A stretch of 46,517 nt of DNA from Chloroflexota bacterium (GTDB taxonomy: Bacteria > Chloroflexota > Limnocylindria > QHBO01), in assembly GCA_039932235.1 (NCBI GenBank), contig JBDTQJ010000001.1, positions 1 through 46,517 of the forward strand. The letters run 5' to 3'. Every line of letters starts with the position of its first letter. The first letter of the stretch is position 1. The notes beneath the pieces were generated by a model. It saw only the letters and a list, made by a program, of their open reading frames with translations, was not told the DNA's origin and made no database searches. Below are positions 11,732 to 42,193 of the stretch, one piece after another. The translations under genes and the position numbers were made by a program.

Positions 11732-13030
11732 TCAGGAGATTGTGAGCGCCTGGCTGGTGAGCTCATAGGCGCCGCGGTGGTCGCCGCCCGCGGCGCGCAG
11801 ATCCGCCCATTCACGGAGCACGTCACGCAGCCGGCCATCCAGCCGCCCGATGCGAGCCACCTCGGCGGCGCTCGCAAAGCGCTGCTCGGCCTCCGAGGCA
11901 TCCCCCGCCTCGCGCATGACTCGCGCCTCGGTGAGGAGCGCCGCCAGCTCGGCGAGGCGATTGCCGCTCGTGCGCGCCTTGGCCATCGCCTCTGCGGCCA
12001 GCGCCCGCGCCTGGGCAGCATCGCCCGCCCGGAGCGCGACCTGCGCCTGCGTTTCGAGGATGGCGGCCATGACGCGCTCGTCGCCGGTCTTCTCTGCCTG
12101 GTGGTGCGCGGCATTGGCGTACTCGCGCGCTCGGTCCACGTTCCCGCCGGCGAGGTACGCGAGCGCCAGGTCATTCTCGATGGAGGCGGACTCGAGCTCG
12201 GTCCCCGCGGCCCGGAACAGCCCCAGGGCCTGGGTCCCGCTGCGGATGGCAGCCTCGACGTCCCCGGTCTCGCGGTAGCTGATGGCGAGGTTGAAGAGGT
12301 ACGTGGCACGGCGCCGGTCGTCGAGGTCGCCGGCGAAGCCACGCGCCTCCTCCAGGTAGCGCAGCGCCCGCTCGTGCTCGCCGGTGCGCGATTCGACCGC
12401 CGCCAGCGACATCAGGAGCCGCATCTCGAACTCCGGTTCGACGAGCATCCCGCTCCGCACCCGCTCCAGCAGGCTGGTGAGCATGGTGCGCGCCTCTGCC
12501 TCGGCATCCGACTCGTAGAGTCCGTAGGCGAGCCAGTAGCGTGCAAGCGCCGCGTCATCCGACCGCCCGAGCTCCTCGTACAGGCGCGCCGCCTCCGATG
12601 CGCGGATCACGGCCTCGCGGCCTCTGCCCAGGCGTGCCTCTGCCTCGGCGATGCCTCGCAGCAGGCCTGCGCGGCTGGCGTCATCAGCCGCGTGGTCGAG
12701 CAGCTCCGCGTAGCCGTCCGCCGCGGACTGCCAGTCACCCGCGGCGAGCTGGAGATCCACCTCCAGGCGCGTCCAGGCCGGGTGCTGCTCGTCGATGAAA
12801 TGGCTTGCCGGCAGCCCCAGCCGCTCCGACAGGAAGCGCAGGGCGACCATGCTCGGCCGGGCGATGCCGGTCTCGAGGGCACTGACATACGCCTTGGTAT
12901 ATCGATCCCCAGCGAGCGCCTGCTGCGTGAGGCCCGATCGATGGCGGGCCTCACGGATGCGAGCGCCGATGCGCTTGGCGAGTGCGACGTCCTGCTCCGT
13001 CGCCCGCGCGATGGTCTTTGTTCTCGGCAT
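11732..13030 (-). CDS. XRE-family HTH transcriptional regulator with long TPR-like C-terminal domain
   Basis: ATG at 13030. HTH segment IREARHRSGLTQQALAGDRYTKAYVSALETGIARPS. The remaining ~350 aa are Ala/Leu/Glu-rich helical repeats (LGR..EA.., ARYWLAYGLYE, ALRYLEEA, YLFNLAISYRETGD, LALAYLAGGN). Confidence 0.85.
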   Translation of the reverse strand: MPRTKTIARATEQDVALAKRIGARIREARHRSGLTQQALAGDRYTKAYVSALETGIARPSMVALRFLSERLGLPASHFIDEQHPAWTRLEVDLQLAAGDWQSAADGYAELLDHAADDASRAGLLRGIAEAEARLGRGREAVIRASEAARLYEELGRSDDAALARYWLAYGLYESDAEAEARTMLTSLLERVRSGMLVEPEFEMRLLMSLAAVESRTGEHERALRYLEEARGFAGDLDDRRRATYLFNLAISYRETGDVEAAIRSGTQALGLFRAAGTELESASIENDLALAYLAGGNVDRAREYANAAHHQAEKTGDERVMAAILETQAQVALRAGDAAQARALAAEAMAKARTSGNRLAELAALLTEARVMREAGDASEAEQRFASAAEVARIGRLDGRLRDVLREWADLRAAGGDHRGAYELTSQALTIS

Positions 13031-13161
13031 TGCCGGAGTGTACAACCCCGTGGCAAGTGTGGATTGACGAGACCCACCGCCGAAAGTACGGGGATCCGCG
13101 CAGCGCCTTGGTACCGGTGGGCCATTGTTCGCGCGCACCAACCGGGCGAGCGTGTAGCCAG

Positions 13162-13180
13162 GTCACCCGCCGTGGGTGAC
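13162..13180. promoter_or_regulatory. inverted repeat GTCACCC-N5-GGGTGAC (candidate operator)
   Basis: Perfect 7-bp arms at 13162-13168 and 13174-13180, 8 nt upstream of the AGGAG of the small ORF, in the regulator/peptide intergenic region. Confidence 0.3.
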
Positions 13181-13199
13181 GCACACCAGGAGATCCCTT

Positions 13200-13319
13200 A
13201 TGCGCGCACCCCGGATCGTTCGATCCATTCTGCTCGCAGGCATGGTCGCCGCGGTGAGCCTCATGTCCATCGCCACGACCGTCCTCGGCGTCACCACCGG
13301 AGGCGGATTCCCTCACTGA
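13200..13319 (+). CDS. unlisted 39-aa ORF, signal-peptide-like pre-peptide (MRAPRIVRSILLAGMVAAVSLMSIATTVLGVTTGGGFPH)
   Basis: ATG at 13200 is preceded by AGGAG (13188-13192) with a 7-nt spacer; TGA at 13317-13319. A strong stem-loop lies 26 nt downstream. Basic N-terminus, hydrophobic core, short polar tail. Below the 60-aa cut-off of the ORF track. Confidence 0.5.
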   Translation: MRAPRIVRSILLAGMVAAVSLMSIATTVLGVTTGGGFPH

Positions 13320-13345
13320 GGCCCCCAGCCCATCCCTGATCGCTT

Positions 13346-13373
13346 GAAGCCACGCCCTCCGGGGCGTGGCTTC
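13346..13373. terminator. GC-rich stem-loop (12-bp perfect stem, 4-nt loop) between the small ORF and the ligD 3' end
   Basis: GAAGCCACGCCC tccg GGGCGTGGCTTC, followed by TTC. Sits between convergent 3' ends, so it could act bidirectionally. Confidence 0.6.
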
Positions 13374-13381
13374 TTCGATGC

Positions 13382-16030
13382 CTAGAGTGGCGGCAGCGCC
13401 TGCTCGGTGGCCAGCGCCCCGGCAAAGAGGTCGCCGACCTCTGCGAGGCGCGCCGGCAGGGAGCGGATCGTCCAGCGGTCGGGTGCGAGATCCGGGTCTT
13501 CCAGCTCCTCCCAGCGGATGGGGGCCGAGACCGGGGCACCGGCGGCCGGACGGGGCGAATAGGGCGCCACCAGGGTCTTGTTGATCGCGTTCTGGGTGTA
13601 GTCGAGGCGCGCGCGGCCGCGACGTGCACGCTTGGCCCACTCCCAGCTGACGAGCTCGGGCACGGTCTGCCCGACGACCCGGCTGACACCTTCGACCCAG
13701 TCGCGGGTCTCGGCGAAGGAGTAGCCCTGCCGGACGGGCACCCACACCTGGATGCCACGCTTGCCGGTCACCTTCGGCAGGCCGATGACACCGAGGTGCT
13801 GCAACGCGGTCCGGTAGAGCCGCGCCAGCACGAGCACCTCCTGCCAGGTGGTCTGCTCCCCCGGGTCGATGTCGATGAGCGCATACGTCGGCATGTCCGG
13901 CGCATCGGTCCGGCTGGTCCACGGGTGCAGCTCGATCGCCGCCTCCTGGGCGAGCCACGCCAGCGTCGCCGGCTCCTGCACCACGATGTAGTCCTTCTTC
14001 CCCTCCTCGCCATGGTCGTAGGTCCAGCGCCCGATCCAATCCGGCGTGTGTCCCGGCAGGTCCTTCTGCCAGAAGCCCTTGGCGTCCACCCCGCTCGGAA
14101 ATCGCTGCACCGTGGTGCCCCGTCCGGCGAGGTACGGGACGATCGTCGTACCGATGCGCGCGTAGTAACGGAAGAGGTCGCGCTTGGTGACCGGTGGCTC
14201 GTCGCCGCGGCCGGGGAACAGGACCTTGTCGAGATTGGTCACCCGCACCTCGCGCCCCGCGATGCGCCAGCTGCCCTCCTTCGCCATTGCCTCGAGGGCG
14301 GCGACCGCCTCGGCCTCGTCGCCCGCGGAGGGGCCCGGTGAGCGCTTCGAACGCCCCGGGCTACGCGGTGCCGCGCGCTCCGCGGCGTCGGCGGCCTGTC
14401 GCGTATCGACCGGCTTCTCCTGGCGAACCGATCGAGCCGCCTTCCCGATCTCGAAGCCCTTGAACGCCGCCTGCCGCAGCAGGCCATCGGTCGTCCATTC
14501 GGCGAACTCGACGCGCACCACGATGCGCGGCTCGACCCAGTGGGCGCCGCGCAACCGTGGGACCGGATCGAGGGGGCTGTCTTCGCGGGCCAGCGCGTCG
14601 AGCTGGGCGCGCAGCTCGCGGCGCGTCCGCGTATCGAGCCCTGAGCCGACCTGCCCCGCGTGCCGCAGCCGGTCGCCCTCGTGGACTGCCACGATCAACG
14701 ACCCCAGGTCGGCGTGGCTGCCCTTGCCGGCGAGCCACCCCGCGACCACCACCTCCTGCTCGCGCCGCAGCTTGATCTTCAGCCACGACCTCGAGCGCCG
14801 GCCGGGCTCGTAGCGCGAGCGGCGCAGCTTGGCCACGACGCCCTCCAGCTCCTGCTCGCGGGCCGCCTCCACGAATGCCTCGCCGTCGCCAACCACGTGG
14901 GAGCCGTAGCGGACCATGGGGTGGTCGCGGAGCACCGATCGCAGCAGCCGCTTGCGCTGCTCGAGCGGCACGTCGACCAGCGACCGGCCGTCGAGATGCA
15001 GCAGGTCGAAGGCCTGGTAGACGATCGGGATTGCGGCGCGTTCTTCGCTCGAGGCACGTGACCGGTCGCCCATCGAACCCTGGCCGTGCAGGCCTCGAAG
15101 CCCGCTCACATCCTGGAGAAGGCTGAAGTCCGGGCGGCCGCGATCGTCGACCGCGATGACCTCCCCGTCCACCACCGCCTCGCGGGCATCGATCCAGCCG
15201 CGCGCCTCAGCGAGGGCCGGGAAATAGCGCGCCGCGTCCTGGCGGTTGCGGGTCCAGAGGTGGACCTCGCTGCCGCTGACCACGGCCTCCACCCGGTACC
15301 CGTCCCATTTGACCTCGTAGAGCCATTCCGGGTCGCTGAAGGCGCCGCTGCCGAGGGTCGCCTTCATGGGCGGGACGAATTCGGGGAGTGCCGCGTCGGC
15401 TGCGGCCGAGAGGTCGATCTCAGCCTCCGCCGCCGGTGCCGATCCGTCCCAGCGGGCAGGCGCATCGGCCTTCACCTCGTCGTTGGTGCGGCCCGACTTC
15501 ACCGAGGTGGGGTGGTCCTCCGCGTCCCAGCCGGCCACGGCGGCCTCGTCCTTCTTGTGCATCAGCAGCCACTTCTCGCGGTCATCGGTGTCGCCGTGGC
15601 GGCCGCTGGTACGCACGATCGTGAAGCGCCCGCTCAGCCGCTCCCCGTGGAGGCGAAACTTGACCTCGCCCTTGCGCAGGGCGGCGGCCGGGTCGCGCGT
15701 CTCCTCCGGCTCCCAGGTCCCCCAGTCCCACACGATCACGTCGCCGCCGCCGTACTCCCTGGCCGGGATGACCCCCTCGAAGTCGAGGTAGTCGATGGGA
15801 TGGTCCTCGGTGCGCATCGCCAGCCGCTTCTCCCCCGGGTCGAGGGTCGGGCCCTTGGGCACCGCCCAGCTCACGAGCACACCGTCGATCTCGAGCCGGA
15901 AGTCGTAGTGCAGCGCCGTCGCGCGATGGCGCTGGACGGTGAATCGCCGTCCGTCGCCGATCGGTCCGTCTCCGGAAGGCTCGGGGGTCCGGGCAAAGTC
16001 GCGCTTGGACCGATACGCCTCGAGGGGCAT
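13382..16030 (-). CDS. ligD: ATP-dependent DNA ligase D, three-domain (phosphoesterase-ligase-polymerase)
   Basis: 882 aa. N-terminal PE domain (FTVQRHRATALHYDFRLE, WAVPKGP), ligase KxDG motif (EVKWDGYR) and C-terminal primase-polymerase domain (LDKVLFP...TKRDL..YY, QRFPSG, FWQK). Confidence 0.95.
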   Translation of the reverse strand: MPLEAYRSKRDFARTPEPSGDGPIGDGRRFTVQRHRATALHYDFRLEIDGVLVSWAVPKGPTLDPGEKRLAMRTEDHPIDYLDFEGVIPAREYGGGDVIVWDWGTWEPEETRDPAAALRKGEVKFRLHGERLSGRFTIVRTSGRHGDTDDREKWLLMHKKDEAAVAGWDAEDHPTSVKSGRTNDEVKADAPARWDGSAPAAEAEIDLSAAADAALPEFVPPMKATLGSGAFSDPEWLYEVKWDGYRVEAVVSGSEVHLWTRNRQDAARYFPALAEARGWIDAREAVVDGEVIAVDDRGRPDFSLLQDVSGLRGLHGQGSMGDRSRASSEERAAIPIVYQAFDLLHLDGRSLVDVPLEQRKRLLRSVLRDHPMVRYGSHVVGDGEAFVEAAREQELEGVVAKLRRSRYEPGRRSRSWLKIKLRREQEVVVAGWLAGKGSHADLGSLIVAVHEGDRLRHAGQVGSGLDTRTRRELRAQLDALAREDSPLDPVPRLRGAHWVEPRIVVRVEFAEWTTDGLLRQAAFKGFEIGKAARSVRQEKPVDTRQAADAAERAAPRSPGRSKRSPGPSAGDEAEAVAALEAMAKEGSWRIAGREVRVTNLDKVLFPGRGDEPPVTKRDLFRYYARIGTTIVPYLAGRGTTVQRFPSGVDAKGFWQKDLPGHTPDWIGRWTYDHGEEGKKDYIVVQEPATLAWLAQEAAIELHPWTSRTDAPDMPTYALIDIDPGEQTTWQEVLVLARLYRTALQHLGVIGLPKVTGKRGIQVWVPVRQGYSFAETRDWVEGVSRVVGQTVPELVSWEWAKRARRGRARLDYTQNAINKTLVAPYSPRPAAGAPVSAPIRWEELEDPDLAPDRWTIRSLPARLAEVGDLFAGALATEQALPPL

Positions 16031-31501: not shown

Positions 31502-32884
31502 TCAGGCGGGCTCCTCGGCCGCCGTGGCACCGGTGAAGGTGAAGCCGCGAATCCGGACGGCCGGCACGCGGCAATGCACGCCGGTGTAGTCCGCACCGAC
31601 GAGCCGCGTCGCCGTGCCGATGGCGTCGATACGGCTGAAGGCCTCCGGCACCGACTGGGTGAAGCGCAGGTTGCGTACCGGACCCACCACCTCGCCGTTC
31701 TCGATCAGGAAGGTGCCGTCCTTGGTCATCCCGGTCAGGATCCCCTTCTTGGGATGCACGATGTTCACGTAGTGGAAGCGCGTCACCCACAGGCCGCGCT
31801 TGATGCCGGCCAGCAGCGTGCCCGGCGTGGCCGAGCCGGGTGCCATGAACAGGTTCCAGGCGATGGGGCCCGAGGTGTTGGGCTGCGGCAGGGCGTGGCC
31901 CGTCGACTCGGTCCCGGCACGCCGCGCGGTCGCGCTGTCGTGGACGAGCCCGGTCGCGATGCCACCGCTGATGATGTCCACGCGACGCTTGGCGACGCCC
32001 TCGAAATCGATGGGCGACGGAATGCCGGACGGGTCCTGACCGTCGTCCCAGATGGTCACGTTGTCGCCCATCACCCGCTCGCCGAGGCTCATGAACGATC
32101 GGCCCTCCTCGACGGCCAGCGCCCCGAAGCTGACCAGCGAGGCGTACTCGAGGAGGTTGGCGACCGCGTATTCGTCGAGCACCACGTCGTAGTCGCCCGC
32201 CGGCAGGTCGATGCCGTTGGCGGTGCTACGCCCGCGAGCGGCAGCCTCCTCGCCGACCGCCGCCGGGTCGATCTCGCGGACATCGGTCCCGAAGGCGTGC
32301 GCGTAGCCGGATGCGCCGTTGTCGCCCATCATCACCGTCAGCAGACGAGCCTGGGTGACCATCTGGCGGCTGCGCACGCCCGCGCTGTTGGCGACCGCCA
32401 GCGTCCCGACCTCGGTGGTGAAAGCGCCCGATGCCTCCAGGTTCGCATCGTCCGCGGCGGCGATCACCGCGCTCGCACCGGCGGCCCGCAGCTCGGGATC
32501 GGCAGCCGCCGTGGCCGCCACGTACCCGATCTCCGGGCGCGTGGCCCCATCCGGCAGCGCCAGCGGCGCTCCGTCGGGGTTGGCCGCCGAACGCGCGGCG
32601 ATCTCAATGGCGCGGGTGGCCGCGGCCCGGATCCCCTCCTCGTCGAGGCGGTTGGTACCCGCCACACCGGTGCGCCCGTCGCGGATCACGCGCAGGCGCA
32701 GCGTGGCGTCGTGCTCCGCCACGTTCTGGTGAATGCGCGAGTTGGCAAAGCGCGTGAGCGCCGCATCGGTCGCGTGATACGTCGCCTCGACTTCGCCACC
32801 TTCGCCCGTGGCCGCCTCGATGGCACGGGTCAGCAAATCGTCGATGCGCTGCGGGTCGTGCAGGCTGGCGCGGTCGCTCACCAC
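31502..32884 (-). CDS. TldD/PmbA family metallopeptidase, PmbA(TldE)-like subunit
   Basis: GTG at 32884 with GGGAG 7 nt upstream; a second GTG at 32881 gives a GTGA overlap with the tldD stop. Family-typical LTRFANS.IHQN and C-terminal GGI..GL.. segments. Lacks an HExxxH motif. Confidence 0.85.
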   Translation of the reverse strand: MVSDRASLHDPQRIDDLLTRAIEAATGEGGEVEATYHATDAALTRFANSRIHQNVAEHDATLRLRVIRDGRTGVAGTNRLDEEGIRAAATRAIEIAARSAANPDGAPLALPDGATRPEIGYVAATAAADPELRAAGASAVIAAADDANLEASGAFTTEVGTLAVANSAGVRSRQMVTQARLLTVMMGDNGASGYAHAFGTDVREIDPAAVGEEAAARGRSTANGIDLPAGDYDVVLDEYAVANLLEYASLVSFGALAVEEGRSFMSLGERVMGDNVTIWDDGQDPSGIPSPIDFEGVAKRRVDIISGGIATGLVHDSATARRAGTESTGHALPQPNTSGPIAWNLFMAPGSATPGTLLAGIKRGLWVTRFHYVNIVHPKKGILTGMTKDGTFLIENGEVVGPVRNLRFTQSVPEAFSRIDAIGTATRLVGADYTGVHCRVPAVRIRGFTFTGATAAEEPA

Positions 32885-34326
32885 GATCCCACTCCCACCT
32901 GGACGTTGCGGAAGCGGGCCGGCGCGGCACCGTGGCCGACATGGCCGGTCTGCATCGGTTCGCCCTTCCCGCAGTTGGGGATGCCCCACAGTGTCCATTC
33001 GTCAGGCCCGCAGATGGCGTCGCAGCTGCCCCAGAAGCGCGGCGTGATGCCGGTATAGGTCGGGTTCTTGACCATCTCGGTCAGCTTGCCGTTCTTGATG
33101 AGCCACCCCACCTGCGTCCCAAACTGGAAGTTGAGGCGGCGGTCGTCGATGCTCCAGCTCTTGTTGGTGTCGAGGTAGATGCCGTCATCCGTGTCGGCGA
33201 TCAGGTCGTCGAGCGAGCCGGCCGCACCGGGCCGCAGGTTGATGTTGGTCATCCGGATGATGGGGATGCGGTTCCAGGCCCAGGCCCGGCTGGAGCCCAT
33301 GGAGCGGCGGCCCACGATGGGCGCCGTCTCCCGACTGGTGAGGTAGCCCACGAACTGGCCGGCGCTGACGATCGGCACGTTCTGGGCGGCGACCCCCTCG
33401 TCGTCGTAGCCGAAGGTGCCGAGCCCGCCGGGGGCGGTGGCATCTGCATCGATGTTCACGATCTCGCTCCCGTAGCGCAGCGTGTCGAGCTTGTCCAGGG
33501 TCAGGAACGAGGTGCCGGCGAAGCTCGCCTCCATGCCCAGCACGCGGTCCAGCTCGATGGGATGGCCGCACGACTCGTGGACCTGGAGTCCCAGCTGACT
33601 TGCGCCGATGATGACGGTCATCTCGCCGCTCGGGCACTGCGGCGCGTCGAGCAGCGCCACCGCCTCCTCGGCGATCCGCTCACCGTGGGCCGCCAGGTCC
33701 ATGGCCCGCACGATCTCAAAGCCACCGGTCATCACCTGCCCGCCGGCCGAGTTGGGGTATGACCGCGACTGGGAGTCACTGTCGTTGAACGCCGTTGCCT
33801 CGATCCCGGCGCCGGCCTCGACGATCTCCTGCTCGATCCGCGCACCCTCGGTCGAGGCGAACGTCTTGCGCTCGCGTCCCGACTCGATCGTGCCCTCGCG
33901 CACGGCAACGCCGGGGACCCTGCCCATGGCCGCATCGGCCTCGAAGAGGATCCGCAGCTTGTCGTCGATCGACACGGCCAGCGGATCCTCCGTGAACGGC
34001 GTCGCGTAGTGATCCACCAGCGGAGGGCTGTCGTCGAGGCGCACGGGGTCGCGCATCGCCAGGCCCGACGCGGCGGCGATTGCCAGCGCCTCGCGCGCGA
34101 CGCGCTCGATCTCCTCCGGCTCGACCCGCGCGCTCGACGAGAAGCCCCACGCGCCGTTGCGCAGGACGCGGATCCCGAAGCCGGCGGACTGCGTCGCGCT
34201 GGCGCTCTCCAGGACGCCGTTCTTGACGGTCAGGGTCTCCGACTCGCGATCCACCATGCGCACGTCGGCGTACGAGGCGCCACCCCGCTGGGCGGCATCC
34301 AGGGCTCGGTTCAGCAGCTCATCCAC
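32878..34326 (-). CDS. tldD: metalloprotease TldD
   Basis: GTG start at 34326. GASYADVR N-terminus, HESCGH (HExxxH) motif, and the C-terminal NCGKG..M..GHG segment typical of TldD. Confidence 0.9.
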   Translation of the reverse strand: MDELLNRALDAAQRGGASYADVRMVDRESETLTVKNGVLESASATQSAGFGIRVLRNGAWGFSSSARVEPEEIERVAREALAIAAASGLAMRDPVRLDDSPPLVDHYATPFTEDPLAVSIDDKLRILFEADAAMGRVPGVAVREGTIESGRERKTFASTEGARIEQEIVEAGAGIEATAFNDSDSQSRSYPNSAGGQVMTGGFEIVRAMDLAAHGERIAEEAVALLDAPQCPSGEMTVIIGASQLGLQVHESCGHPIELDRVLGMEASFAGTSFLTLDKLDTLRYGSEIVNIDADATAPGGLGTFGYDDEGVAAQNVPIVSAGQFVGYLTSRETAPIVGRRSMGSSRAWAWNRIPIIRMTNINLRPGAAGSLDDLIADTDDGIYLDTNKSWSIDDRRLNFQFGTQVGWLIKNGKLTEMVKNPTYTGITPRFWGSCDAICGPDEWTLWGIPNCGKGEPMQTGHVGHGAAPARFRNVQVGVGSW

Positions 34327-35798: not shown

Positions 35799-37102
35799 GG
35801 CCGGCTCGCTCGCCGGTTGCGACGGCCGATCCAGGCGGCGGTCACCACCCCGCCAAGGACGACCAGACCGATGGCCCCGGGGATCAGCGCTCCCCCATCC
35901 GTGCCGTTGTCACCGACGGGTGCCGGCAGCGGCGCGCCGCTCGCCCGTGGGGCGCCGCCGGAGGAGCCTGGGACGGTCACGTCGGACGGCGGGATCGGGC
36001 GCGGCGAGACCGGTTGCGGGGCCGCGACGCCGAATGTGTCGAAGAAGGCTGCGTACAGCTGCTCGGCCGGCATGCCCGCCGCCGCCTGGAGCGCCTCGTC
36101 GTCGGTCGCGCCCTCCCGGTACGCGGCTGCCAGGCTCGCCATCGCCTCCGGGCCATGGTCGGCGATGAGCCGGTCGACCATCACGGCGCCCTGGGCGTAG
36201 GCGAGGCGCGCACCGCGATCGCCGATCGGGAACTGCTGCGTGATGGCGGGGAATGCGAACAGGCCGTCACCAGCCTCGAACGCGACCAGTGAGCGCTCGA
36301 CGTCGGCGTTCTGCTGCTCGGACCAGCTGGCAAAGCCCTCGTTCAGCCAGCGGGCGGGGTCGTGGAACGCGTTTGCGGTGGCGTCCCGGAATACCACGTG
36401 GGTGACCTCGTGGACGATGGTCGTCTCCAGGTAGTCGGCCGGGCCGCCGCGAAGCCACATGAAGATCGTCCGCAGCTCTGGATAGGTGGCGGCGCCGGTC
36501 CATTCGCGCGCGCCCGGGCCGAGGGCGCCGAAGAACTCGTCCTGGGTGTCGTACACGAAGATGTCGATGGGGCCGGCCAGCTCGTGGCCCAGCGTGGCCT
36601 CGGCACGCGCCGCGCCGTCGGCGGTCAGCTCCCCGAATTTCCGCGCCTGACCCTCGGCGTCGCCATACCAGTGCACCGTGGCCTGCCCGATGGTGGCGGT
36701 CTGCCAGTCGAGCCCGGCTCGGTCGTCGTCATACAGCAGCTCTCCGGCTGCGCTGAGCGTCTGCGTATCGCCAACGGTCGCCCGCCATCGGTAGGTGATG
36801 TGCGTGTTGGGGGTCACGTGGTCGCGATCCGCGTCCCAGCGGTAGGTGGCCGCCTCGCCCTGCGCCGCCACCGGCGCCACGAACACCGAATCGTCGCCGG
36901 CAAAGTCGAGCAGCAGCTCCAGCCGATCGGGAGGGCCGCCGGGCAGGCCGATCGTGAAGGTCATCTCGATACCGTACGTCGCATCGGCGGTCGCCGTGCC
37001 AAATCCGCTGAACGCACTGACCGGGCGGGCGGGCAGCAGCGCCAGGGTGGCGGCCAGCAGCACGACCGCGAGCACCGGTCGCCATCGGCTCAGCCGTCCC
37101 AT
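35795..37102 (-). CDS. secreted, C-terminally membrane-anchored MA-clan zinc metallopeptidase (Peptidase_MA_2-like)
   Basis: ATG at 37102. Signal peptide ...LLPARPVSA, HEVTH (HExxH) plus a downstream NEGFASW glutamate, a Pro-rich linker and a C-terminal TM helix. Start overlaps the SBP gene by 13 nt. Confidence 0.75.
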   Translation of the reverse strand: MGRLSRWRPVLAVVLLAATLALLPARPVSAFSGFGTATADATYGIEMTFTIGLPGGPPDRLELLLDFAGDDSVFVAPVAAQGEAATYRWDADRDHVTPNTHITYRWRATVGDTQTLSAAGELLYDDDRAGLDWQTATIGQATVHWYGDAEGQARKFGELTADGAARAEATLGHELAGPIDIFVYDTQDEFFGALGPGAREWTGAATYPELRTIFMWLRGGPADYLETTIVHEVTHVVFRDATANAFHDPARWLNEGFASWSEQQNADVERSLVAFEAGDGLFAFPAITQQFPIGDRGARLAYAQGAVMVDRLIADHGPEAMASLAAAYREGATDDEALQAAAGMPAEQLYAAFFDTFGVAAPQPVSPRPIPPSDVTVPGSSGGAPRASGAPLPAPVGDNGTDGGALIPGAIGLVVLGGVVTAAWIGRRNRRASRP

Positions 37103-38646
37103 GACAGCCTCCCGAAGTCGAGCAGGCCGATGGTCAGCTGTCCTGTCCCGCGCAGCCCGTCGCGCACCAGCCACCAGTTCTCGTCGTACGACCACGGGAC
37201 GAGCGGCGCCTCCTCGCGCACCCGGGCATCGACCGCGCGGTACGCGGCGGCCTGTGCAGCGGGCTCCTCCTGCTCGGCAGCCGCCTGGAGGAGCTCGGCG
37301 AAGCCCTCGTCGACCCAGCGGCCGTTGTTGTCCGGCGCATCCGGTTGCAGGAGCAGGCCGTAGAGCGCATGCGGTGACGGGTAGTCCGCGATCCAGTTGA
37401 TGGTGTAGACCTGCGGCGGGTCTGTGCGCAGGACGCCGACGTAGTCGTTGAAATCCATCACCTCGATGTCGATCGTCACGCCCAGCGCCGCTTCCCAGAT
37501 GGCCACCGCCGGCGACACGTCGAGGCCGGTGCCGTTGACGGTGATGGTGCCCAGCGCCGATCCGCTGGCGTAGCCGGCCTCGGCCAGCAGCGCGCGCGCG
37601 GCGTCGAGGTCGGCCGGATCCGGCTCGCCGAACGTGTCGCCCGGCCACAGCGCGGGCGGCACCACGCTGCCCGCGGGACGGGCGTCGGTTCCGGCGGACA
37701 GCTCCACCAGCCGCGTCCGGTCAAGGGCGAGGGCGAAGGCGCGCCGCACGCGGGCGTCGTCGAATGGCGGCCGGGTGGTGTCGAACGCGAAGTACTGGAC
37801 CGACAGCGCCGCCCCGCGCTGCAGGCTTGGGCCGAGGTCGCGGTCGTAGCTGATCCACGACGCGTCGGACGAGGCAATCCCGGTGAGATCGATCCGGCCG
37901 TCGGCGAAGGCAGTCGCCACGTCGTCGTCGAGTCGGCCGACCCATCGCACCTCGTCGATGGGCGGCGCGCCGCCGACGTACCGATCGCTGGCGCGCAGCA
38001 CGACATCGTCGCCCTCCATGCGCTCGACGACGTACGGGCCGGACCCGACGAAGCGCTCCGCGGTCTGCCAGGTGTCATCAGTCCCGGCCGCGGGGGGCAC
38101 CACGAACGTCGCCGGCGTGGCAGTGATGGAGGTGAAATAGCCTGCCGCGTGCTCCAGCTCGACGACGAGGGTCCGGGCATCCGGCGCCGTGATCCCGACG
38201 CCATCCTCCGCGCCGCCCGCCAGGCGCGCACTCGCGCCGCGCACGACCGTCAGCATGCCCGGCGCGAAGGCGCCGACCGCCGGATCGAGGAGGCGGAGCC
38301 ACGAGCGGCGGATGTCGGCGGCGCGCAGCTCGCTGCCGTCGGAGAAGGTGAGCCCCTCGCGCAGGGTGAAGGTGTAGGTCAGCCCGTCGTCGCTGACCGT
38401 CCACGAGTCGGCGAGCGACGGGTAGACGGTGCCCTCCTCGTCGAGACGGGTGAGGCCGGCGTACAGCTGCAGCAGCAGCTGCACGTCGGCGGCATCGGAG
38501 ATGAAGGCGGGGTCCAACGTCCCGATCTGCCCGCCCAGGTAGCGCAGCGGCTCCCCCGCCGCACGTGCGTCCTGGCGCACTCCCAGCGTGGTGACGACCA
38601 GCACGAGCGCCCCCAGGACCGCCAGGCTGGCGGTCAGCCGGCGCAT
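37090..38646 (-). CDS. ABC transporter substrate-binding protein, family 5 (peptide/nickel type)
   Basis: 518 aa with a signal peptide. LDPA......LL.QLY.GL..LD and PSLA.SW..S.DG..YTF.LR.G..FSDG are typical of SBP_bac_5. No cognate permease or ATPase genes are adjacent. Confidence 0.85.
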   Translation of the reverse strand: MRRLTASLAVLGALVLVVTTLGVRQDARAAGEPLRYLGGQIGTLDPAFISDAADVQLLLQLYAGLTRLDEEGTVYPSLADSWTVSDDGLTYTFTLREGLTFSDGSELRAADIRRSWLRLLDPAVGAFAPGMLTVVRGASARLAGGAEDGVGITAPDARTLVVELEHAAGYFTSITATPATFVVPPAAGTDDTWQTAERFVGSGPYVVERMEGDDVVLRASDRYVGGAPPIDEVRWVGRLDDDVATAFADGRIDLTGIASSDASWISYDRDLGPSLQRGAALSVQYFAFDTTRPPFDDARVRRAFALALDRTRLVELSAGTDARPAGSVVPPALWPGDTFGEPDPADLDAARALLAEAGYASGSALGTITVNGTGLDVSPAVAIWEAALGVTIDIEVMDFNDYVGVLRTDPPQVYTINWIADYPSPHALYGLLLQPDAPDNNGRWVDEGFAELLQAAAEQEEPAAQAAAYRAVDARVREEAPLVPWSYDENWWLVRDGLRGTGQLTIGLLDFGRLSWDG

Positions 38647-39314: not shown

Positions 39315-39932
39315 ATGCCGCTCCATACCCTCGCCCGTCTCGTCCAGGCGGCCGGCCTGGCCGGCCTGGTGGCCGCCGCCGCCTTCGCGCTGCTCGGGAT
39401 GCCGGCCCTGGCCGGCATCGATACCCTGATCGGGCGAACCGATGCGACCCTCACCACCGCCGCTGCCGCGGCGCGCAGTGCCGCCGACGCCTTCGACGGC
39501 TTCGACGCATCGCTGACCGAAGCCACCCGCGCCACGGACGACGCCGCGCTTCTCGCCGCGCGAACCGCCGAGACCGCCCGCAACCTCGCCTCGGCGATGA
39601 GCATCAGCGTCTTCGGCACCCAGCCTTTCGTGGGGCTGGCCGTCGAGTTCGGAGCGAGCGCCGAGGACCTCGATGCGCTGGCCGGCACATTGAGCACCAT
39701 GCGTGGCGCGCTGGACGGTAACGGCGACGACCTGGCGGCGCTCCAGGTGCAGCTCAGCCTGCTGGCCGACGACATCGAGCGCCTCGCCGCACCAAGCCGC
39801 ATGCCGCCGCTCGTCCCGGTCGGCATCGGGCTGCTGATCCTCCTGGCCATCCAGTCCGGCGGCCTGCTCGCGGCGGGAACCGCGCTCAGTCGACTCGATG
39901 CATCAGCCGTCGCAGGCGAACCAGGGCGATGA
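39315..39932 (+). CDS. hypothetical membrane protein with N- and C-terminal TM helices and an Ala-rich helical ectodomain
   Basis: ATG at 39315, 4 nt after the preceding stop. High GC3. The 3' end overlaps the convergent ABC-2 permease gene by 47 nt. Confidence 0.55.
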   Translation: MPLHTLARLVQAAGLAGLVAAAAFALLGMPALAGIDTLIGRTDATLTTAAAAARSAADAFDGFDASLTEATRATDDAALLAARTAETARNLASAMSISVFGTQPFVGLAVEFGASAEDLDALAGTLSTMRGALDGNGDDLAALQVQLSLLADDIERLAAPSRMPPLVPVGIGLLILLAIQSGGLLAAGTALSRLDASAVAGEPGR

Positions 39933-41079
39933 TGTAGAGCAGGATCCCGATCCCTGCCAGCGCGCCGAGCATCCACACCGAGCTGACCTCGCCACGCAGC
40001 ATCGCCTCCTGGAGGGTGGCGATGCCGTGCGTCACCGGCAGCGCGTACGCGACCGGTCGGACGGCAGGGATGAAGTCGTCCACGGGGAGGACGAAGCCGG
40101 AGAAGAAGACGCTCGCCAGCAGCACCAGCATGGACAGCTGGACGGCCTGTCGCTCCGAGTCGGCAATGAGCGAGATGAGGATCCCCAGGCCCAGCGAGGC
40201 GAACGTGAGCAGGAGGACGATCCCCACCAGGATCGGCCAGCCGCCTAAGTTGGGCACCCCGAGCCAGCCCACCATGGCACCGCCCACCAGGGCGCTGACC
40301 GCCAGGCTGAAGAGGGCGTAGGCCACGTACTTCCCAATCAGCAGCTCGGCGGAGTTGAGCGGCGAGACACGGTACCGATCCATCTGTCCGGTGAGCCGCT
40401 CGCGCACGAGCGAGAGCGCGGTGAGGGTGATCGCGAGGTGCTGTAGCACGAGCGCGAAGACCGCCGGCCCGAAGAAGGCGATGGTCGCGGGCGCGGTTGG
40501 CGCCACGTTGGTCTCCTTCGCCGTCGTCGGCTCCGCGATCACGTTGGGATCCAGGGTCACCGGCTCGCCGAGCTCGGCGTTGGCGACGGTGATCCCCTCC
40601 GCAGCCGCGCGCCGGATGATCTCCTGGTTCAGCTCCCCCACCATGATCTGCATGGCCAGGCGCGCGAGGCCGTCGTCGAGCGGGTCCACCTCGTTCCAGT
40701 ACACCTCGATGGTCGACTGCTCGCCGGCACGCATGCGCGCCTCGGCGTCGGCCGGCGCGACCACGACGACCGCGACGTCCTGCGCCCGCAGTCGCGCGAG
40801 CGCCGCCTCCTTGTCCGTGCCGACTTCCTGGATCGACATGCGGTCCTCGGTCATGTCCTGGTAGAAGGCCGGGTCGGTCGGCATGCTGCTGCCCTCGGGG
40901 AGGACGATATCGGCGGTGAACGGGCGCCGCTGGCCCTCGTAGCCGATGCCGAACAGGAGCATCACGAGGAGCGGCCCCAGCACGAGGGTGGCGATGACAC
41001 CGGGCCGCCGCCTGAGCTCCCGCAGCTCCTTGCCGACGAACGAGGTGACGCGGATCAGGCTCTTCAGGACGCCGGTCAT
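39886..41079 (-). CDS. ABC-2 type transporter permease
   Basis: 397 aa. N-terminal TM, a large extracytoplasmic loop, then 5 C-terminal TM helices (YhaP/YhgE-like topology). ATGA overlap with the ATPase gene. Confidence 0.85.
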   Translation of the reverse strand: MTGVLKSLIRVTSFVGKELRELRRRPGVIATLVLGPLLVMLLFGIGYEGQRRPFTADIVLPEGSSMPTDPAFYQDMTEDRMSIQEVGTDKEAALARLRAQDVAVVVVAPADAEARMRAGEQSTIEVYWNEVDPLDDGLARLAMQIMVGELNQEIIRRAAAEGITVANAELGEPVTLDPNVIAEPTTAKETNVAPTAPATIAFFGPAVFALVLQHLAITLTALSLVRERLTGQMDRYRVSPLNSAELLIGKYVAYALFSLAVSALVGGAMVGWLGVPNLGGWPILVGIVLLLTFASLGLGILISLIADSERQAVQLSMLVLLASVFFSGFVLPVDDFIPAVRPVAYALPVTHGIATLQEAMLRGEVSSVWMLGALAGIGILLYIIALVRLRRLMHRVD

Positions 41080-42110
41080 GCCACCGCCTCACGTGCCGCG
41101 ATCTCTTCGTCAGTGGTCTGCCGCGCCTCGCGGTGGCGAGTCACGAGAGTCGTGAACATGTCGTCGAAGCTCGCCTGGTACTCCTCGATCTCGCGCACCT
41201 CGACGTTCGCGGCTCGAAGCGCATCCATGATCCGGGGCGAGGTGGTCCCGGCGTCGTCGGTGACCGCGATCAGCTGGCGACCCGTTACCTGACGCACCTC
41301 CCGAACGCCGTCCACGCGCTTCAGGACCTCGGCATCGACCACGCTCAGGGTGTTGATCTCGAGCACCTCTCCGCCGAATGCTGAACGACGCAGTGCCTCC
41401 GGCTCGTCCAGCCCGATGAGCTCGCCCTCGGCGAGCAGCGCGACCCGATCGCAATAGATCGCCTCGCCCACGTACTGGGTCGTAACCAGCAGGGTGGCGC
41501 CTTCGTCCCGCAGGCGCCGAAGCTCGTCCCAGATCGACTCGCGGAGCAGCGGATCGATCCCCGCCGTCGGCTCGTCGATGAAGAGGACGCGTGGGTTGTG
41601 CACCAGCGCGCAGGCCAGCTCGAGGCGGCGCTGCATTCCGCCGGACAGGTCGCGTGCCGGCCGATGCCGTGCATCCCACAGGTCGACCACACCCAGGCCG
41701 CGCTTGATCAGCTTCGAGCGCTCCCACCACGGCACCCCGAACAGCGCAGCCACGAAGTTCATGTTCTCCGCGGCGGTCAGGTCCGGATACAGGCTGAACA
41801 GCTGCGGCATGTAGGCGATTCGCTCGCGTGCCTGGCGGGTGAACTCCAGCGGGACCTGGCCGAGCACGCTCAACCGCCCCTCCGTCGGCCCGAGCGTGCC
41901 GGTCAACATGCGGATGATGGTGGTCTTGCCGGATCCGGAAGGGCCGATCATGCCCAGCACGGTGCCCTCCGGCACGGTGAGGCTGACGTCCTGGACGGCA
42001 CGCACGTCACCGAAGCGGCGTGAGACCGAGTCCATCTGGATGACCGTCGGGGCGCCGGCGGGCGGTGCGGATGGCGCTGGCCTGGCCATCGAAGGGGGAA
42101 GGGCTTGCAT
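41076..42110 (-). CDS. ABC transporter ATP-binding protein
   Basis: Walker A GPSGSGKTT, signature LSGGMQRR, Walker B LFIDEPT, plus a C-terminal accessory domain. Start uncertain (ATG at 42110 preferred; 42089 and 42128 possible). Confidence 0.9.
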   Translation of the reverse strand: MQALPPSMARPAPSAPPAGAPTVIQMDSVSRRFGDVRAVQDVSLTVPEGTVLGMIGPSGSGKTTIIRMLTGTLGPTEGRLSVLGQVPLEFTRQARERIAYMPQLFSLYPDLTAAENMNFVAALFGVPWWERSKLIKRGLGVVDLWDARHRPARDLSGGMQRRLELACALVHNPRVLFIDEPTAGIDPLLRESIWDELRRLRDEGATLLVTTQYVGEAIYCDRVALLAEGELIGLDEPEALRRSAFGGEVLEINTLSVVDAEVLKRVDGVREVRQVTGRQLIAVTDDAGTTSPRIMDALRAANVEVREIEEYQASFDDMFTTLVTRHREARQTTDEEIAAREAVA

Positions 42111-42193
42111 GCTCGCCCCAGTACGCAAGCGTCATGCCGGTTCCGGCACGCGCCATGCGAGCCCCGGGGAAGACACCACAGAGGAGCGAACCC

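What the first reader, a model, noticed from the sequence alone, without database searches (positions are those of the whole stretch)
11732..13373. Candidate peptide-signalling pair: HTH+TPR regulator with a divergent, unlisted 39-codon pre-peptide ORF
The regulator (11732-13030, minus strand) joins an XRE-type HTH to about 350 aa of TPR-like repeats. That is the receptor architecture of RRNPP (Rap/NprR/PlcR/PrgX) and Rgg quorum-sensing regulators.

169 bp away, on the opposite strand, lies a small ORF (13200-13319) that the 60-aa ORF track cannot show: MRAPRIVRSILLAGMVAAVSLMSIATTVLGVTTGGGFPH.
- It has a canonical AGGAG 7 nt before the ATG.
- It has a basic N-terminus, a hydrophobic export-like core and a short polar tail.
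- It has its own 12-bp GC stem-loop 26 nt after the stop.
- A perfect GTCACCC-N5-GGGTGAC inverted repeat sits just upstream of its SD, so it is a possible operator.

A divergent receptor/pro-peptide arrangement is known for Rgg/SHP and PrgX/PrgQ in Firmicutes. To my knowledge such pairs are not characterised in high-GC Actinomycetota-like genomes.
Basis: partly seen in the sequence, partly recalled or inferred. Interest (0 to 1): 0.7.

Follow-up and report, generated by a model that had tools for sequence, protein, structure and literature searches.

The report
Peptide-and-receptor signalling pair in Chloroflexota
A tiny gene for a short exported peptide sits back-to-back with the gene for a DNA-binding receptor that seems to recognise it; this signalling design has so far been described only in Firmicutes, and here it is conserved across a whole class of soil Chloroflexota.

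Summary
All evidence is computational.

- **Regulator.** 11732-13030 (-) encodes a 432-aa XRE-type HTH followed by nine TPR-like helix pairs.
- **Small ORF.** The 39-codon ORF at 13200-13319 (+) is a genuine gene. It occurs divergently, about 160-190 nt from the regulator start, in all 90 assessable related loci. These include 48-54%-identical regulators in a different gene neighbourhood. Substitutions follow a coding pattern.
- **Two forms.** The pre-peptide form has a basic N-terminus, a hydrophobic core, a conserved V-x-[AG] cleavage-type site and a tail [VAS][TS]xGG[GA](D)[FW]Px. The leaderless form is always 12 codons: Met, two residues, then exactly that tail.
- **Covariation.** Regulator residue 283 is Arg exactly when the peptide has Asp/Glu before the aromatic residue (38/0/1/48). 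Three correlated changes map on the tree. This points to direct peptide-TPR contact.

Two corrections. The host is Chloroflexota (Candidatus Limnocylindria), not Actinomycetota. The GTCACCC-N5-GGGTGAC repeat is not a conserved operator; it is more likely a stem-loop near the 5' end of the peptide mRNA.

The pair meets most of the RRNPP operational signature, but homology to known RRNPPA subfamilies is unproven. Export, re-import, binding and the regulon are inferred.

The parts
11732..13030 (-). Receptor/regulator gene, 432 aa: N-terminal XRE-type HTH plus nine TPR-like helix pairs
   Evidence: Pfam TPR_12 E 1.4e-17 and HTH_3 at 22.8 bits. AF2 model pLDDT 88.5, pTM 0.83, with 9 helix pairs from residue 84 to 430. 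Homologues listed are 67-96% identical, and nearly all are 426-437 aa.
12803..12958 (-). HTH DNA-binding domain (aa 25-76)
   Evidence: Pfam HTH_3/HTH_19. The best PDB sequence match for this region is the PlcR HTH, E 3.1e-6. The stretch R43-G55 is invariant, apart from V49 (at least 90% conserved), in 60 homologues.
11741..12781 (-). TPR-like superhelix (aa 84-430), the predicted peptide-binding domain
   Evidence: AF2 secondary structure. Foldseek finds peptide-binding TPRs (LGN/Pins) and Rap-Phr complexes.
12182..12184 (-). Codon 283 (Ser in this window), first helix of the sixth TPR-like pair, next to invariant I284-E285-N286-D287. This position covaries with the peptide.
   Evidence: Arg here goes with Asp/Glu before the peptide's F/W: 38/0/1/48. 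It is the best predictor among all regulator columns, with three correlated changes on the tree.
13037..13042 (-). TACACT, 6 nt before the regulator ATG, with no SD: candidate -10 box of a leaderless regulator mRNA (inferred)
   Evidence: The block AGT.TAC is at least 85% conserved across the 20 aligned intergenic regions, at a fixed distance from the ATG.
13052..13068 (+). GGCAAG-N6-TTGAC, an imperfect dyad: best candidate operator/promoter element of the regulator (inferred)
   Evidence: It occurs once in the window (0.03 expected). It occurs exactly once, always near the regulator start, in 87 of 101 loci.
13083..13127 (+). Further conserved intergenic blocks AAAGTAC (13083-13089), GGTAC (13110-13114) and GGCCATTG (13120-13127); roles undetermined
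   Evidence: Conserved columns in the intergenic alignment.
13125..13153 (+). Promoter-like element of the peptide gene, TTGTTC-N17-GAGCGT (inferred from conservation only)
   Evidence: TTGnnn-N17(18)-[GC]AnnGT is present in 66 of 79 distinct intergenic sequences. It is not a canonical sigma-70 match.
13162..13180 (+). GTCACCC-N5-GGGTGAC: probable stem-loop near the 5' end of the peptide mRNA, not an operator
   Evidence: A hairpin of unrelated sequence sits at the same place in most loci. L004 has a compensatory change and L002/3/5 a G.U pair. On its own it is not significant.
13188..13192 (+). Shine-Dalgarno AGGAG, 7 nt before the ATG
   Evidence: A GGAG-type SD precedes nearly every orthologous small ORF.
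13200..13319 (+). Pre-peptide gene, 39 codons plus stop
   Evidence: Conserved in frame in 90 of 90 assessable loci. Coding substitution pattern. 227 database clusters, all unnamed.
13200..13289 (+). Predicted export signal (aa 1-30): MRAPRIVRS, hydrophobic core, V28-L29-G30 cleavage-type site
   Evidence: R2, R5 and R8 are conserved. Position -3 is V in 47/48 and position -1 is A or G in 48/48. The leaderless relatives lack exactly this part.
13290..13316 (+). Predicted mature peptide VTTGGGFPH (aa 31-39)
   Evidence: Conserved tail motif in both classes. The leaderless ORFs are M-x-x plus this 9-mer, for example MQH-VTNGSGFPA.
13346..13373 (.). 12-bp GC stem-loop between the peptide gene and convergent ligD: terminator-like and usable from both strands
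   Evidence: z = -4.8 on the + strand and -2.2 on the - strand. Across 76 distinct downstream sequences the 80 nt after the stop fold with mean z -1.8.

Best explanation
This is a two-gene peptide-signalling module that works like an RRNPP system.

Proposed mechanism:
1. The 39-aa product of 13200-13319 is a pre-peptide.
2. Its basic N-terminus and hydrophobic core take it through the Sec pathway.
3. Signal peptidase cuts after V28-L29-G30.
4. The C-terminal nonapeptide VTTGGGFPH is released.
5. The peptide re-enters the cell, or in leaderless relatives never leaves it.
6. It binds the concave face of the TPR superhelix of the 432-aa regulator, with the residue before the Phe/Trp lying near regulator residue 283.
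7. Binding changes how the N-terminal HTH acts on conserved sites in the shared 169-bp intergenic region, and so on transcription of the peptide gene and/or the regulator itself.

Shown by computation: both genes are real, their pairing and arrangement are conserved, the peptide is under amino-acid-level selection, the regulator has an HTH plus 9-TPR architecture, and one receptor residue covaries with one peptide residue.

Inferred: export, the cleavage site, re-import, physical binding, the sign of regulation, density dependence and the target regulon.
For: **Pairing**
- A small ORF sits 160-199 nt divergent from the regulator ATG in all assessable main-clade loci. Together with the distant clade this makes 90 of 90 assessable loci from GTDB genomes and JGI metagenomes.
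- The distant clade (48-54% identity) has lost the ligD/DUF3090 synteny and gained an extra XRE gene, yet keeps the small ORF.
- The reverse search agrees. The exact window peptide and a 54%-identical relative are always next to a 432-aa HTH/TPR_12 gene.

**Translation**
- Summed entropies at codon positions 1/2/3 are 28.5/20.3/40.8.
- Invariant Pro uses 3-4 codons.
- Four MQHVTNGSGFPA loci differ only synonymously.
- Pooled dN/dS is about 0.5.

**Peptide anatomy**
- The n-region is conserved and carries about +3 charge.
- V-x-[AG] lies directly before the conserved tail in 48 of 48 main-clade sequences and in all 5 distant ones.
- The leaderless 12-codon forms keep exactly the predicted mature part. 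They fall in 5 separate all-leaderless clades on the NJ tree.

**Receptor**
- The AF2 model has pLDDT 88.5 and shows an HTH plus 9 TPR-like pairs.
- Foldseek hits are peptide-in-groove TPRs and Rap-pheromone complexes, E 1e-6 to 1e-9.
- The HTH is closest to that of PlcR.

**Contact**
- Residue 283 is Arg if and only if the peptide has D/E before F/W, with 1 exception in 87. It is the best of all columns.
- Gains at L093 and at the base of a 40-tip clade fall on the same branches for both traits. The losses are nested.

**Standalone gene**
- The peptide gene is monocistronic. It has an SD and a terminator-like hairpin, and is followed by a convergent gene, ligD or nifU-like.

**Signature**
- Four of the five RRNPP signature criteria of PMC10075063 are met. 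The fifth, secretion, was judged by hand only.
Against: - There is no experimental or expression data.
- SignalP was not available. The 21-residue hydrophobic stretch could be a membrane anchor.
- The leaderless forms have no export signal, so extracellular (quorum) signalling is not guaranteed.
- No RRNPPA subfamily-specific model hits the regulator. Generic TPR proteins outrank Rap in fold searches, and no named AimR appears among the 50 listed viral hits.
- The locus is a vertically inherited, syntenic core locus with a rather conserved peptide. Many RRNPP systems are instead mobile and diversified into pherotypes.
- An OppA-type binding protein is in the window, but no permease lies next to it.
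- No canonical promoter was found.
- The covariation rests on about three evolutionary events on an NJ tree.
Confidence: 0.62

Rival explanations
1. The partners are the same, but there is no cell-to-cell signalling. The peptide acts only inside, or at the membrane of, the producing cell, as a private co-factor or anti-regulator of the TPR protein in an autoregulatory loop. In the pre-peptide form the hydrophobic segment is a membrane anchor or a degradation/titration handle rather than a cleaved signal.
For: The leaderless 12-codon forms have no export signal, arise repeatedly and are under selection. The hydrophobic stretch is TM-length. The locus is a conserved core locus with little peptide diversification. 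The covariation fits any direct binding mode.
Against: The positive-inside rule puts the conserved tail outside the cell in the long form. The V-x-[AG] site is conserved at -3/-1 in all long forms, which an anchor would not need. Leaderless peptides that are nevertheless secreted and re-imported exist (RopB/SIP, PMC10518010).
Confidence: 0.2
2. The adjacency is inherited synteny without functional coupling. The small ORF encodes a small secreted or membrane protein with an unrelated role, and the regulator senses something else.
For: In the main clade the whole block ligD - small ORF - regulator - DUF3090 - phosphatase - MarR is syntenic, so adjacency alone is weak evidence there.
Against: The pair persists in the distant clade, which shares none of the other neighbours. 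The divergent spacing is fixed. Residue 283 covaries with the peptide in about three events. The leaderless forms rule out a role that depends on the membrane segment.
Confidence: 0.08
3. The small ORF is a precursor of a modified peptide or cofactor (RiPP-like, in the manner of PqqA or MftA with a conserved C-terminal core). The regulator controls or senses the product.
For: The peptide is very short with a conserved C-terminal G-G-G-aromatic-Pro core. There is a weak NCBIfam hit of the TPR region to a RiPP-associated TPR protein, 26.9 bits against a cut-off of 1125.
Against: No modifying enzyme is conserved next to the pair. The neighbours are LigD, a NifU-like protein, DUF3090 and a phosphatase in the main clade, and unrelated ORFs with no recognisable modifying enzyme in the distant clade (not Pfam-scanned). 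The leaderless forms have no leader for an enzyme to recognise.
Confidence: 0.06
4. The small ORF acts in cis. It is a regulatory leader or arrest peptide whose translation, for example stalling at G-G-G-[FW]-P, controls transcription through the region.
For: The aromatic-Pro motif lies close to the stop codon. A hairpin follows 26 nt later.
Against: No gene lies downstream on the same strand in any locus, and the next gene is convergent. The number of residues after Pro varies from 0 to 3. Covariation with a residue of the regulator is not expected for a cis element.
Confidence: 0.03

Closest known systems
NprR-NprX (Bacillus cereus group; RRNPP family)
   Same: The receptor has about 420-430 aa with an N-terminal XRE-type HTH and nine TPRs. 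The cognate pro-peptide is about 40 aa, is Sec-exported, and its active part is a short peptide from the C-terminal region. The two genes are adjacent.
   Different: The nprX gene lies downstream on the same strand, not divergent. No sequence-level family link was found here. Fold similarity is no better than to generic TPR proteins. The host phylum is Bacillota rather than Chloroflexota.
Rgg-SHP and PrgX-PrgQ (streptococci, enterococci)
   Same: The receptor and short-peptide genes are divergent and share a regulatory intergenic region. The C-terminal part of the peptide is the signal.
   Different: Rgg/PrgX have about 285-320 aa with five degenerate TPR-like repeats (Rgg_C/TIGR01716), which do not match here. 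SHPs are exported by PptAB and cut by Eep rather than by Sec and signal peptidase (own knowledge and PMC10075063).
[quoted passage not shown]
   Same: An ultrashort ORF encodes the signal without a leader or processing sites, and is transcribed divergently from its cytosolic HTH-TPR receptor. This is the design of the 12-codon relatives such as MQHVTNGSGFPA and MRSAHTGGGWPS.
   Different: The window's own peptide has a leader. LCPs are 8-aa hydrophobic peptides of Firmicutes with Rgg-like receptors. Here the leaderless forms derive repeatedly from a leader-bearing ancestor within one orthologous family.
PlcR-PapR (Bacillus cereus)
   Same: The HTH of the regulator is the closest solved-structure sequence match, E 3e-6. 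PapR is a 48-aa Sec pro-peptide whose C-terminal heptapeptide is the ligand.
   Different: PlcR has only five TPRs and 285 aa. The match is confined to the HTH. The papR gene lies downstream on the same strand.
Rap-Phr (Bacillus, plasmid pLS20, phage phi3T)
   Same: These are the best bacterial fold matches to the TPR domain, including pheromone-bound structures: 6t46, 8rsv and 8rst, TM (target-normalised) 0.6-0.7.
   Different: Rap proteins have a 3-helix N-terminal domain instead of an HTH. They act on proteins rather than DNA. Sequence identity is 11-14%.

Membership tests
RRNPP-type quorum-sensing system (operational signature of PMC10075063) | Small pro-peptide gene (10-100 aa) | tested here: met
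   39 aa. Orthologues have 37-41 aa or 12 aa.
RRNPP-type quorum-sensing system (operational signature of PMC10075063) | Pro-peptide carries a secretion signal (Sec/SPase I by SignalP, or SHP-type export) | tested here: inconclusive
   SignalP was not available. By hand: net +3 n-region, 21-residue hydrophobic core, and V-x-[AG] at -3/-1 conserved in all long forms. The 12-codon relatives have no signal at all.
RRNPP-type quorum-sensing system (operational signature of PMC10075063) | Receptor of 250-500 aa | tested here: met
   432 aa.
RRNPP-type quorum-sensing system (operational signature of PMC10075063) | Receptor contains TPRs | tested here: met
   Pfam TPR_12 E 1.4e-17, three stretches. 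Nine helix pairs in the AF2 model.
RRNPP-type quorum-sensing system (operational signature of PMC10075063) | Receptor and pro-peptide genes are direct neighbours | tested here: met
   169 bp apart and divergent. Conserved in 90 of 90 assessable loci.
RRNPPA protein family (homology) | Receptor is homologous to a known subfamily (Rap, Rgg, NprR, PlcR, PrgX, AimR and others) | tested here: inconclusive
   No subfamily-specific Pfam or NCBIfam model hits at E <= 0.1-1. PDB profile search: PlcR HTH at 3e-6 and RapH TPR at 0.004, but kinesin light chain TPR scores better. Foldseek ranks Rap complexes at 1e-6 to 1e-7, behind LGN and designed TPRs. No named AimR appears among the 50 listed viral hits.
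RRNPPA protein family (homology) | Mature peptide binds in the TPR groove of its cognate receptor | not testable with these tools
Indirect support comes from the covariation of Arg283 with peptide Asp/Glu: 38/0/1/48, about three events.
RRNPPA protein family (homology) | Peptide is re-imported by an oligopeptide permease (Opp) | not tested
   An OppA/DppA-type SBP_bac_5 protein is encoded at 37090-38646, but no permease was seen beside it and no link to the peptide can be drawn.
RRNPPA protein family (homology) | Known range: Bacillota and their plasmids and phages | tested here: not met
   Seventeen of the 21 genome relatives are labelled Chloroflexota, mostly Candidatus Limnocylindria. The other four carry other phylum labels, probably from mis-binning. 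The literature describes RRNPP(A) as Firmicutes/Bacillota systems (PMC10075063, PMC9765709, PMC12700828).
Leaderless communication peptide (LCP)/RopB class | Ultrashort ORF encoding the mature signal without leader, divergent from the receptor | tested here: not met
   The window's peptide has a 30-residue leader. The feature is met by 31 orthologous loci with 12-codon ORFs, so it applies to relatives and not to this window.
Rgg/SHP | Receptor matches the Rgg C-terminal domain (TIGR01716 / Rgg_C) | tested here: not met
   No such hit in Pfam or NCBIfam.

The most novel reading that the evidence does not exclude
Cytoplasmic-receptor peptide signalling of the RRNPP type is not confined to Bacillota. 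A chromosomal, vertically inherited HTH-9TPR receptor with its own peptide is a core feature of a whole class of Chloroflexota. It could be an ancient relative, and a usable outgroup, of the RRNPPA family. Within it, evolution has repeatedly turned a secreted pro-peptide into a leaderless 12-residue peptide. That may be a switch between public and private signalling.
Probability: 0.35. Interest if true: 0.85.

Novelty: new variant of a known kind. Interest (0 to 1): 0.75.

Why it matters
- **Phylogenetic range.** Peptide quorum sensing with cytosolic TPR receptors is described in the literature searched here as a Firmicutes/Bacillota trait (PMC10075063, PMC9765709, PMC12700828). A conserved, testable receptor-peptide pair in uncultured soil and freshwater Chloroflexota would widen that range.
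- **Rooting the family.** PMC12700828 says an outgroup is needed to root the RRNPPA tree and decide whether nine or five TPRs is ancestral. This HTH-9TPR receptor is a candidate.
- **Natural series.** The family offers leader-bearing and leaderless peptides within one orthologous group.
- **Ready experiment.** The predicted specificity contact, receptor residue 283 against the peptide residue before the aromatic, is directly testable with synthetic nonapeptides and a recombinant protein.
- **Annotation.** The peptide family (227 database clusters) is currently labelled only 'hypothetical protein', and the 12-codon forms fall below normal gene-calling limits.

Tried and rejected
- **Rfam.** A search of 12900-13500 at E <= 10 gave only chance-level hits, so no known RNA family explains the conserved intergenic blocks.
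- **Consensus promoter scan.** No canonical sigma-70 promoter was found in 12900-13500, and the one terminator-like hit lies inside the regulator gene. Promoter assignments therefore rest on conservation only.
- **The inverted repeat as operator.** Rejected. It is not sequence-conserved between orthologues, is not significant alone, and sits a few nt after the conserved promoter-like element.
- **Viral fold library.** Only generic TPR/Sel1 proteins of giant viruses were found, and no named AimR.
- **Peptide profile search.** The first attempt failed because the first sequence was under 40 aa. It was repeated successfully.
- **F versus W covariation.** Columns 312, 320 and 385 associate with the peptide's F/W. 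They are confounded by phylogeny and inconsistent across independent switches; only 385 tracks L097 against L077. Not used as evidence.
- **Regulon search.** GGCAAG-N5-8-TTGAC occurs nowhere else in the window, so no further target was found.
- **Naive parsimony on leader presence.** With midpoint rooting it makes the leaderless state ancestral with four gains. Rejected because the leaders of separate clades are clearly homologous; Dollo reasoning gives up to five losses.
- **Cis-acting leader peptide.** Rejected because there is no downstream gene on the same strand.
Full report
**1. What is in the sequence**

The region reads as the first-stage reader described.

- **Regulator.** It runs 11732-13030 (-) and starts at the ATG at 13030. 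The ORF table also lists a TTG-started version reaching 13141. The homologues listed are 67-96% identical and nearly all are 426-437 aa.
- **Domains.** Pfam finds TPR_12 at E 1.4e-17 in three stretches. HTH_3 scores 22.8 bits, a hair under its 23-bit cut-off.
- **HTH support.** HTH_3/HTH_31 hits are recorded for homologues. A profile search of PDB sequences gives the PlcR HTH as best match for residues 18-79, E 3e-6.
- **Structure.** The AF2 model has mean pLDDT 88.5 and pTM 0.83. It shows an N-terminal helical domain followed by nine helix pairs from residue 84 to 430.
- **Small ORF.** 169 bp away on the other strand lies 13200-13319, encoding MRAPRIVRSILLAGMVAAVSLMSIATTVLGVTTGGGFPH. AGGAG sits 7 nt upstream.
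- **Other features.** The inverted repeat is at 13162-13180. A 12-bp GC hairpin is at 13346-13373, followed at once by the end of the convergent ligD gene at 13382-16030.

**2. Is it more than chance?**

- Of the 17 SD-preceded ATG ORFs of 30-61 aa in the window, this is the only one with a basic N-terminus plus a hydrophobic core. It is also the only reading frame in the window that ends in G-[GS]-x-[FW]-P.
- The downstream hairpin is far more stable than shuffled sequence: z = -4.8, 0 of 200.
- The 7-bp inverted repeat is not remarkable alone. The 71%-GC window holds 77 such perfect repeats, and its fold has z = -1.1.

**3. Whose genome**

All 21 relatives found in one-genome-per-species GTDB contigs are metagenome-assembled genomes. 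Most are labelled Candidatus Limnocylindria, Chloroflexia or Chloroflexota. Four carry other labels, probably through mis-binning. The closest is 96% identical. The host is therefore Chloroflexota, not Actinomycetota.

**4. The small ORF is a conserved gene**

I collected 21 genome loci and 80 metagenome loci and read the DNA upstream of each regulator.

- **Coverage.** Eleven loci have too little upstream DNA. All 90 others carry the small ORF on the opposite strand: 86 complete and 4 cut by the contig end.
- **Position.** In the main clade its ATG lies 160-199 nt from the regulator ATG. Nearly all have a GGAG-type SD.
- **Coding pattern.** In 48 distinct main-clade sequences, summed entropies at codon positions 1/2/3 are 28.5/20.3/40.8. 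Invariant Ala, Gly and Pro vary only at the third position, and Pro uses 3-4 codons. Pooled dN/dS is about 0.5.
- **Synonymous-only differences.** Four loci encoding MQHVTNGSGFPA differ from each other only synonymously and in the stop codon.
- **Database status.** A profile of the peptides finds 227 clusters. All are 'hypothetical protein' with no Pfam domain, and the named ones are from Limnocylindria.
- **Reverse test.** The exact window peptide is called in four assemblies, each time beside a 432-aa TPR_12 gene. A 54%-identical peptide shows the same arrangement.

**5. Two forms of the peptide**

*Class A* (54 sequences including the window, 37-41 aa) has three parts:
- an n-region M-R-x-x-R-I-x-R-S;
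- about 21 hydrophobic residues ending in V-x-[AG], with V in 47/48 and A or G in 48/48;
- a tail [VAS]-[TS]-x-G-G-[GA]-(D)-[FW]-P followed by 0-3 residues.

*Class B* (31 sequences) has no hydrophobic part. All 27 unambiguous ORFs are exactly 12 codons, and the other four contain the same 12-codon unit from an internal ATG. The form is Met, two variable residues, then the nine residues that correspond to the predicted mature peptide of the nearest class A relatives. For example, MQH-VTNGSGFPA compares with ...VLG|VTTGGGFPH, and MRS-ASCGGGWPF with ...VLG|ASTGGNWP.

The leaders of different clades are plainly homologous, so the leader is ancestral. On a neighbour-joining tree of the regulators the leaderless form occupies five separate clades. 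I take at least two independent losses as safe. These natural deletions mark where the functional peptide begins. The boundary coincides with the signal-peptidase-type site.

**6. Pairing beyond synteny**

In the main clade the whole block ligD - small ORF - regulator - DUF3090 - phosphatase - MarR is syntenic. Some lineages have a NifU-like gene inserted between the small ORF and ligD. Adjacency there could be inheritance alone.

Five metagenome loci with regulators only 48-54% identical share none of those neighbours. They have an extra 104-aa XRE gene. They still carry a divergent 38-41-aa ORF of the same design, for example ...VFA|GGGGTIFPR...VLA|DGGGTTFPH and ...VLA|GGGGPPLPH.

In no locus examined is there a downstream gene on the peptide's strand. 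The next gene is convergent, and a GC hairpin usually follows the stop. This excludes a leader-peptide role for a downstream gene.

**7. A receptor residue tracks a peptide residue**

I scanned every column of the regulator alignment for the best single-residue predictor of an acidic residue directly before the peptide's aromatic residue.

- **Result.** Position 283 stands out, with 1 misclassification in 87. The next best column has 4.
- **Contingency table.** Acidic with Arg283: 38. Acidic without Arg: 0. Non-acidic with Arg: 1. Non-acidic without Arg: 48.
- **Parsimony on the tree.**
  - Both traits are gained on the same branch at L093. Its peptide is ...GGDWP with Arg283, whereas its relative L068 has ...GGNWP with Gln283.
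  - Both traits are gained on the same branch at the base of a 40-tip clade.
  - Both traits are lost on nested branches within that clade.
- **Location.** Position 283 lies in helix 278-294, the first helix of the sixth pair, beside invariant I284-E285-N286-D287. In TPR superhelices the first helix of each repeat lines the concave, ligand-binding face (established knowledge).

An Arg/Asp pairing is what a direct contact would produce. The window itself has Ser283 and Gly before Phe. This is the strongest indication of physical recognition, but it rests on about three events and an NJ tree.

**8. The intergenic region**

Alignment of the regulator-to-peptide spacers shows conserved blocks.

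- **TACACT.** AGTGTAC(A), read as TACACT on the regulator strand, sits 6-7 nt before the regulator ATG with no SD. This suggests a leaderless mRNA (inference).
- **GGCAAG-N6-7-TTGAC.** It occurs exactly once per locus in 87 of 101 loci and once in the window, against 0.03 expected. It is the best operator or promoter candidate for the regulator.
- **Other blocks.** AAAGTAC, GGTAC and GGGYCATTG are conserved, with roles undetermined.
- **TTGnnn-N17-[GC]AnnGT.** This element is present in 66 of 79 distinct spacers.
- **Hairpin.** A few nucleotides after that element, most loci have a hairpin whose sequence differs completely between clades. Examples are GTCACCC/GGGTGAC here, GCCACCC/GGGTGGC in L004, a G.U pair in L002/3/5, and GCGGCCG-type stems elsewhere.

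The HTH recognition region is almost invariant across these proteins. A site that changes sequence freely while keeping its pairing is therefore unlikely to be its operator. It looks like a stem-loop at or near the 5' end of the peptide mRNA. No canonical sigma-70 promoter is detectable, and no Rfam family matches.

**9. Comparison with known systems**

The pair meets four of the five criteria that PMC10075063 uses to define an RRNPP system: a small peptide, a 250-500-aa receptor, TPRs and direct adjacency. The secretion criterion was judged by hand only.

- The architecture (HTH plus nine TPRs, about 430 aa, about 40-aa Sec-type pro-peptide) is closest to NprR-NprX.
- The divergent layout recalls Rgg-SHP and PrgX-PrgQ.
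- The 12-codon relatives recall the leaderless RopB-SIP class (PMC10518010).

Membership by homology is not established.
- No subfamily-specific model hits the regulator.
- In the PDB fold search, eukaryotic LGN/Pins and designed TPRs (E about 1e-8) rank ahead of Rap-pheromone complexes (E 1e-6 to 1e-7, TM 0.6-0.7).
- The viral library gives only generic TPRs.

I therefore file it as working like an RRNPP system, with family membership open.

The literature held here describes RRNPP(A) as a Firmicutes/Bacillota feature. One paper holds both 'RRNPP' and 'Chloroflexi', each once in passing, and none holds both 'Limnocylindria' and 'quorum sensing'.

**10. Verdict**

The finding is real. The gene pair is conserved and co-evolving. 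The best mechanism is peptide-ligand control of an HTH-TPR regulator, probably through export, cleavage and re-import in the leader-bearing form (confidence about 0.6).

The main alternative is the same binding without extracellular signalling (about 0.2). The leaderless forms and the core-genome, low-diversity character of the locus keep it alive.

Novelty: a new variant of a known kind, in a new phylum, with an unusual leader-to-leaderless series. All functional steps remain to be tested.

Noticed in passing
L024, L027, L071, L086, L099 (upstream of the HTH-TPR gene): The distant clade of the family (48-54% identity) has an extra XRE-type HTH ORF between the peptide gene and the HTH-TPR gene. 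It is resolved as about 104 aa in L086 and L099. Two of these loci (L024, L086) have ORFs beside the regulator whose sequence looks PAS-domain-like by eye; they were not scanned.
   Followed up: partly
L009:1-182: The conserved intergenic blocks stop about 40 nt upstream of the regulator. Lower-GC DNA follows, with an ORF starting MSGKEQRRAWILTKLLVGEL. This is probably an insertion that displaced or removed the peptide gene. The contig ends there.
   Followed up: no
window 31502-34326 (-): Two adjacent TldD/PmbA-family metallopeptidase genes. In other bacteria this pair processes small peptides. No link to the peptide studied here was tested.
   Followed up: no
window 37090-38646 (-): An OppA/DppA-type solute-binding protein (SBP_bac_5, E 2e-72) with a signal-like N-terminus. 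My rough gene call found no ABC permease genes beside it.
   Followed up: partly
window 13382-16030 (-): A three-domain LigD (phosphoesterase, ligase, primase-polymerase) is convergent with the peptide gene and shares the 13346-13373 hairpin. It stays next to the pair throughout the main clade. In many lineages a NifU-like gene is inserted between them (L013:2931-3644, L102:6178-6771).
   Followed up: partly
L006, L013, L017, L018: These contigs carry the same syntenic Limnocylindria-type locus but belong to MAGs labelled Steroidobacteraceae, Binatia or Zixiibacteriota. This looks like mis-binning.
   Followed up: no
window 13031-13042 and all aligned loci: The regulator has no Shine-Dalgarno sequence and has a conserved TACACT 6-7 nt before its ATG. 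This suggests translation from a leaderless mRNA.
   Followed up: partly
window 39886-42128 (-): An ABC-2 type exporter pair: a membrane protein plus a DrrA-like ATPase. It is a conceivable exporter for small molecules or peptides, but is 26 kb from the pair and not examined further.
   Followed up: no
regulator columns 385 and 320 against peptide F/W (83 pairs): Regulators paired with Trp-peptides mostly have Tyr385, and those paired with Phe-peptides have Phe385. This includes one within-clade switch (L097 against L077). Several Trp-peptide loci break the rule, so it is suggestive only.
   Followed up: partly
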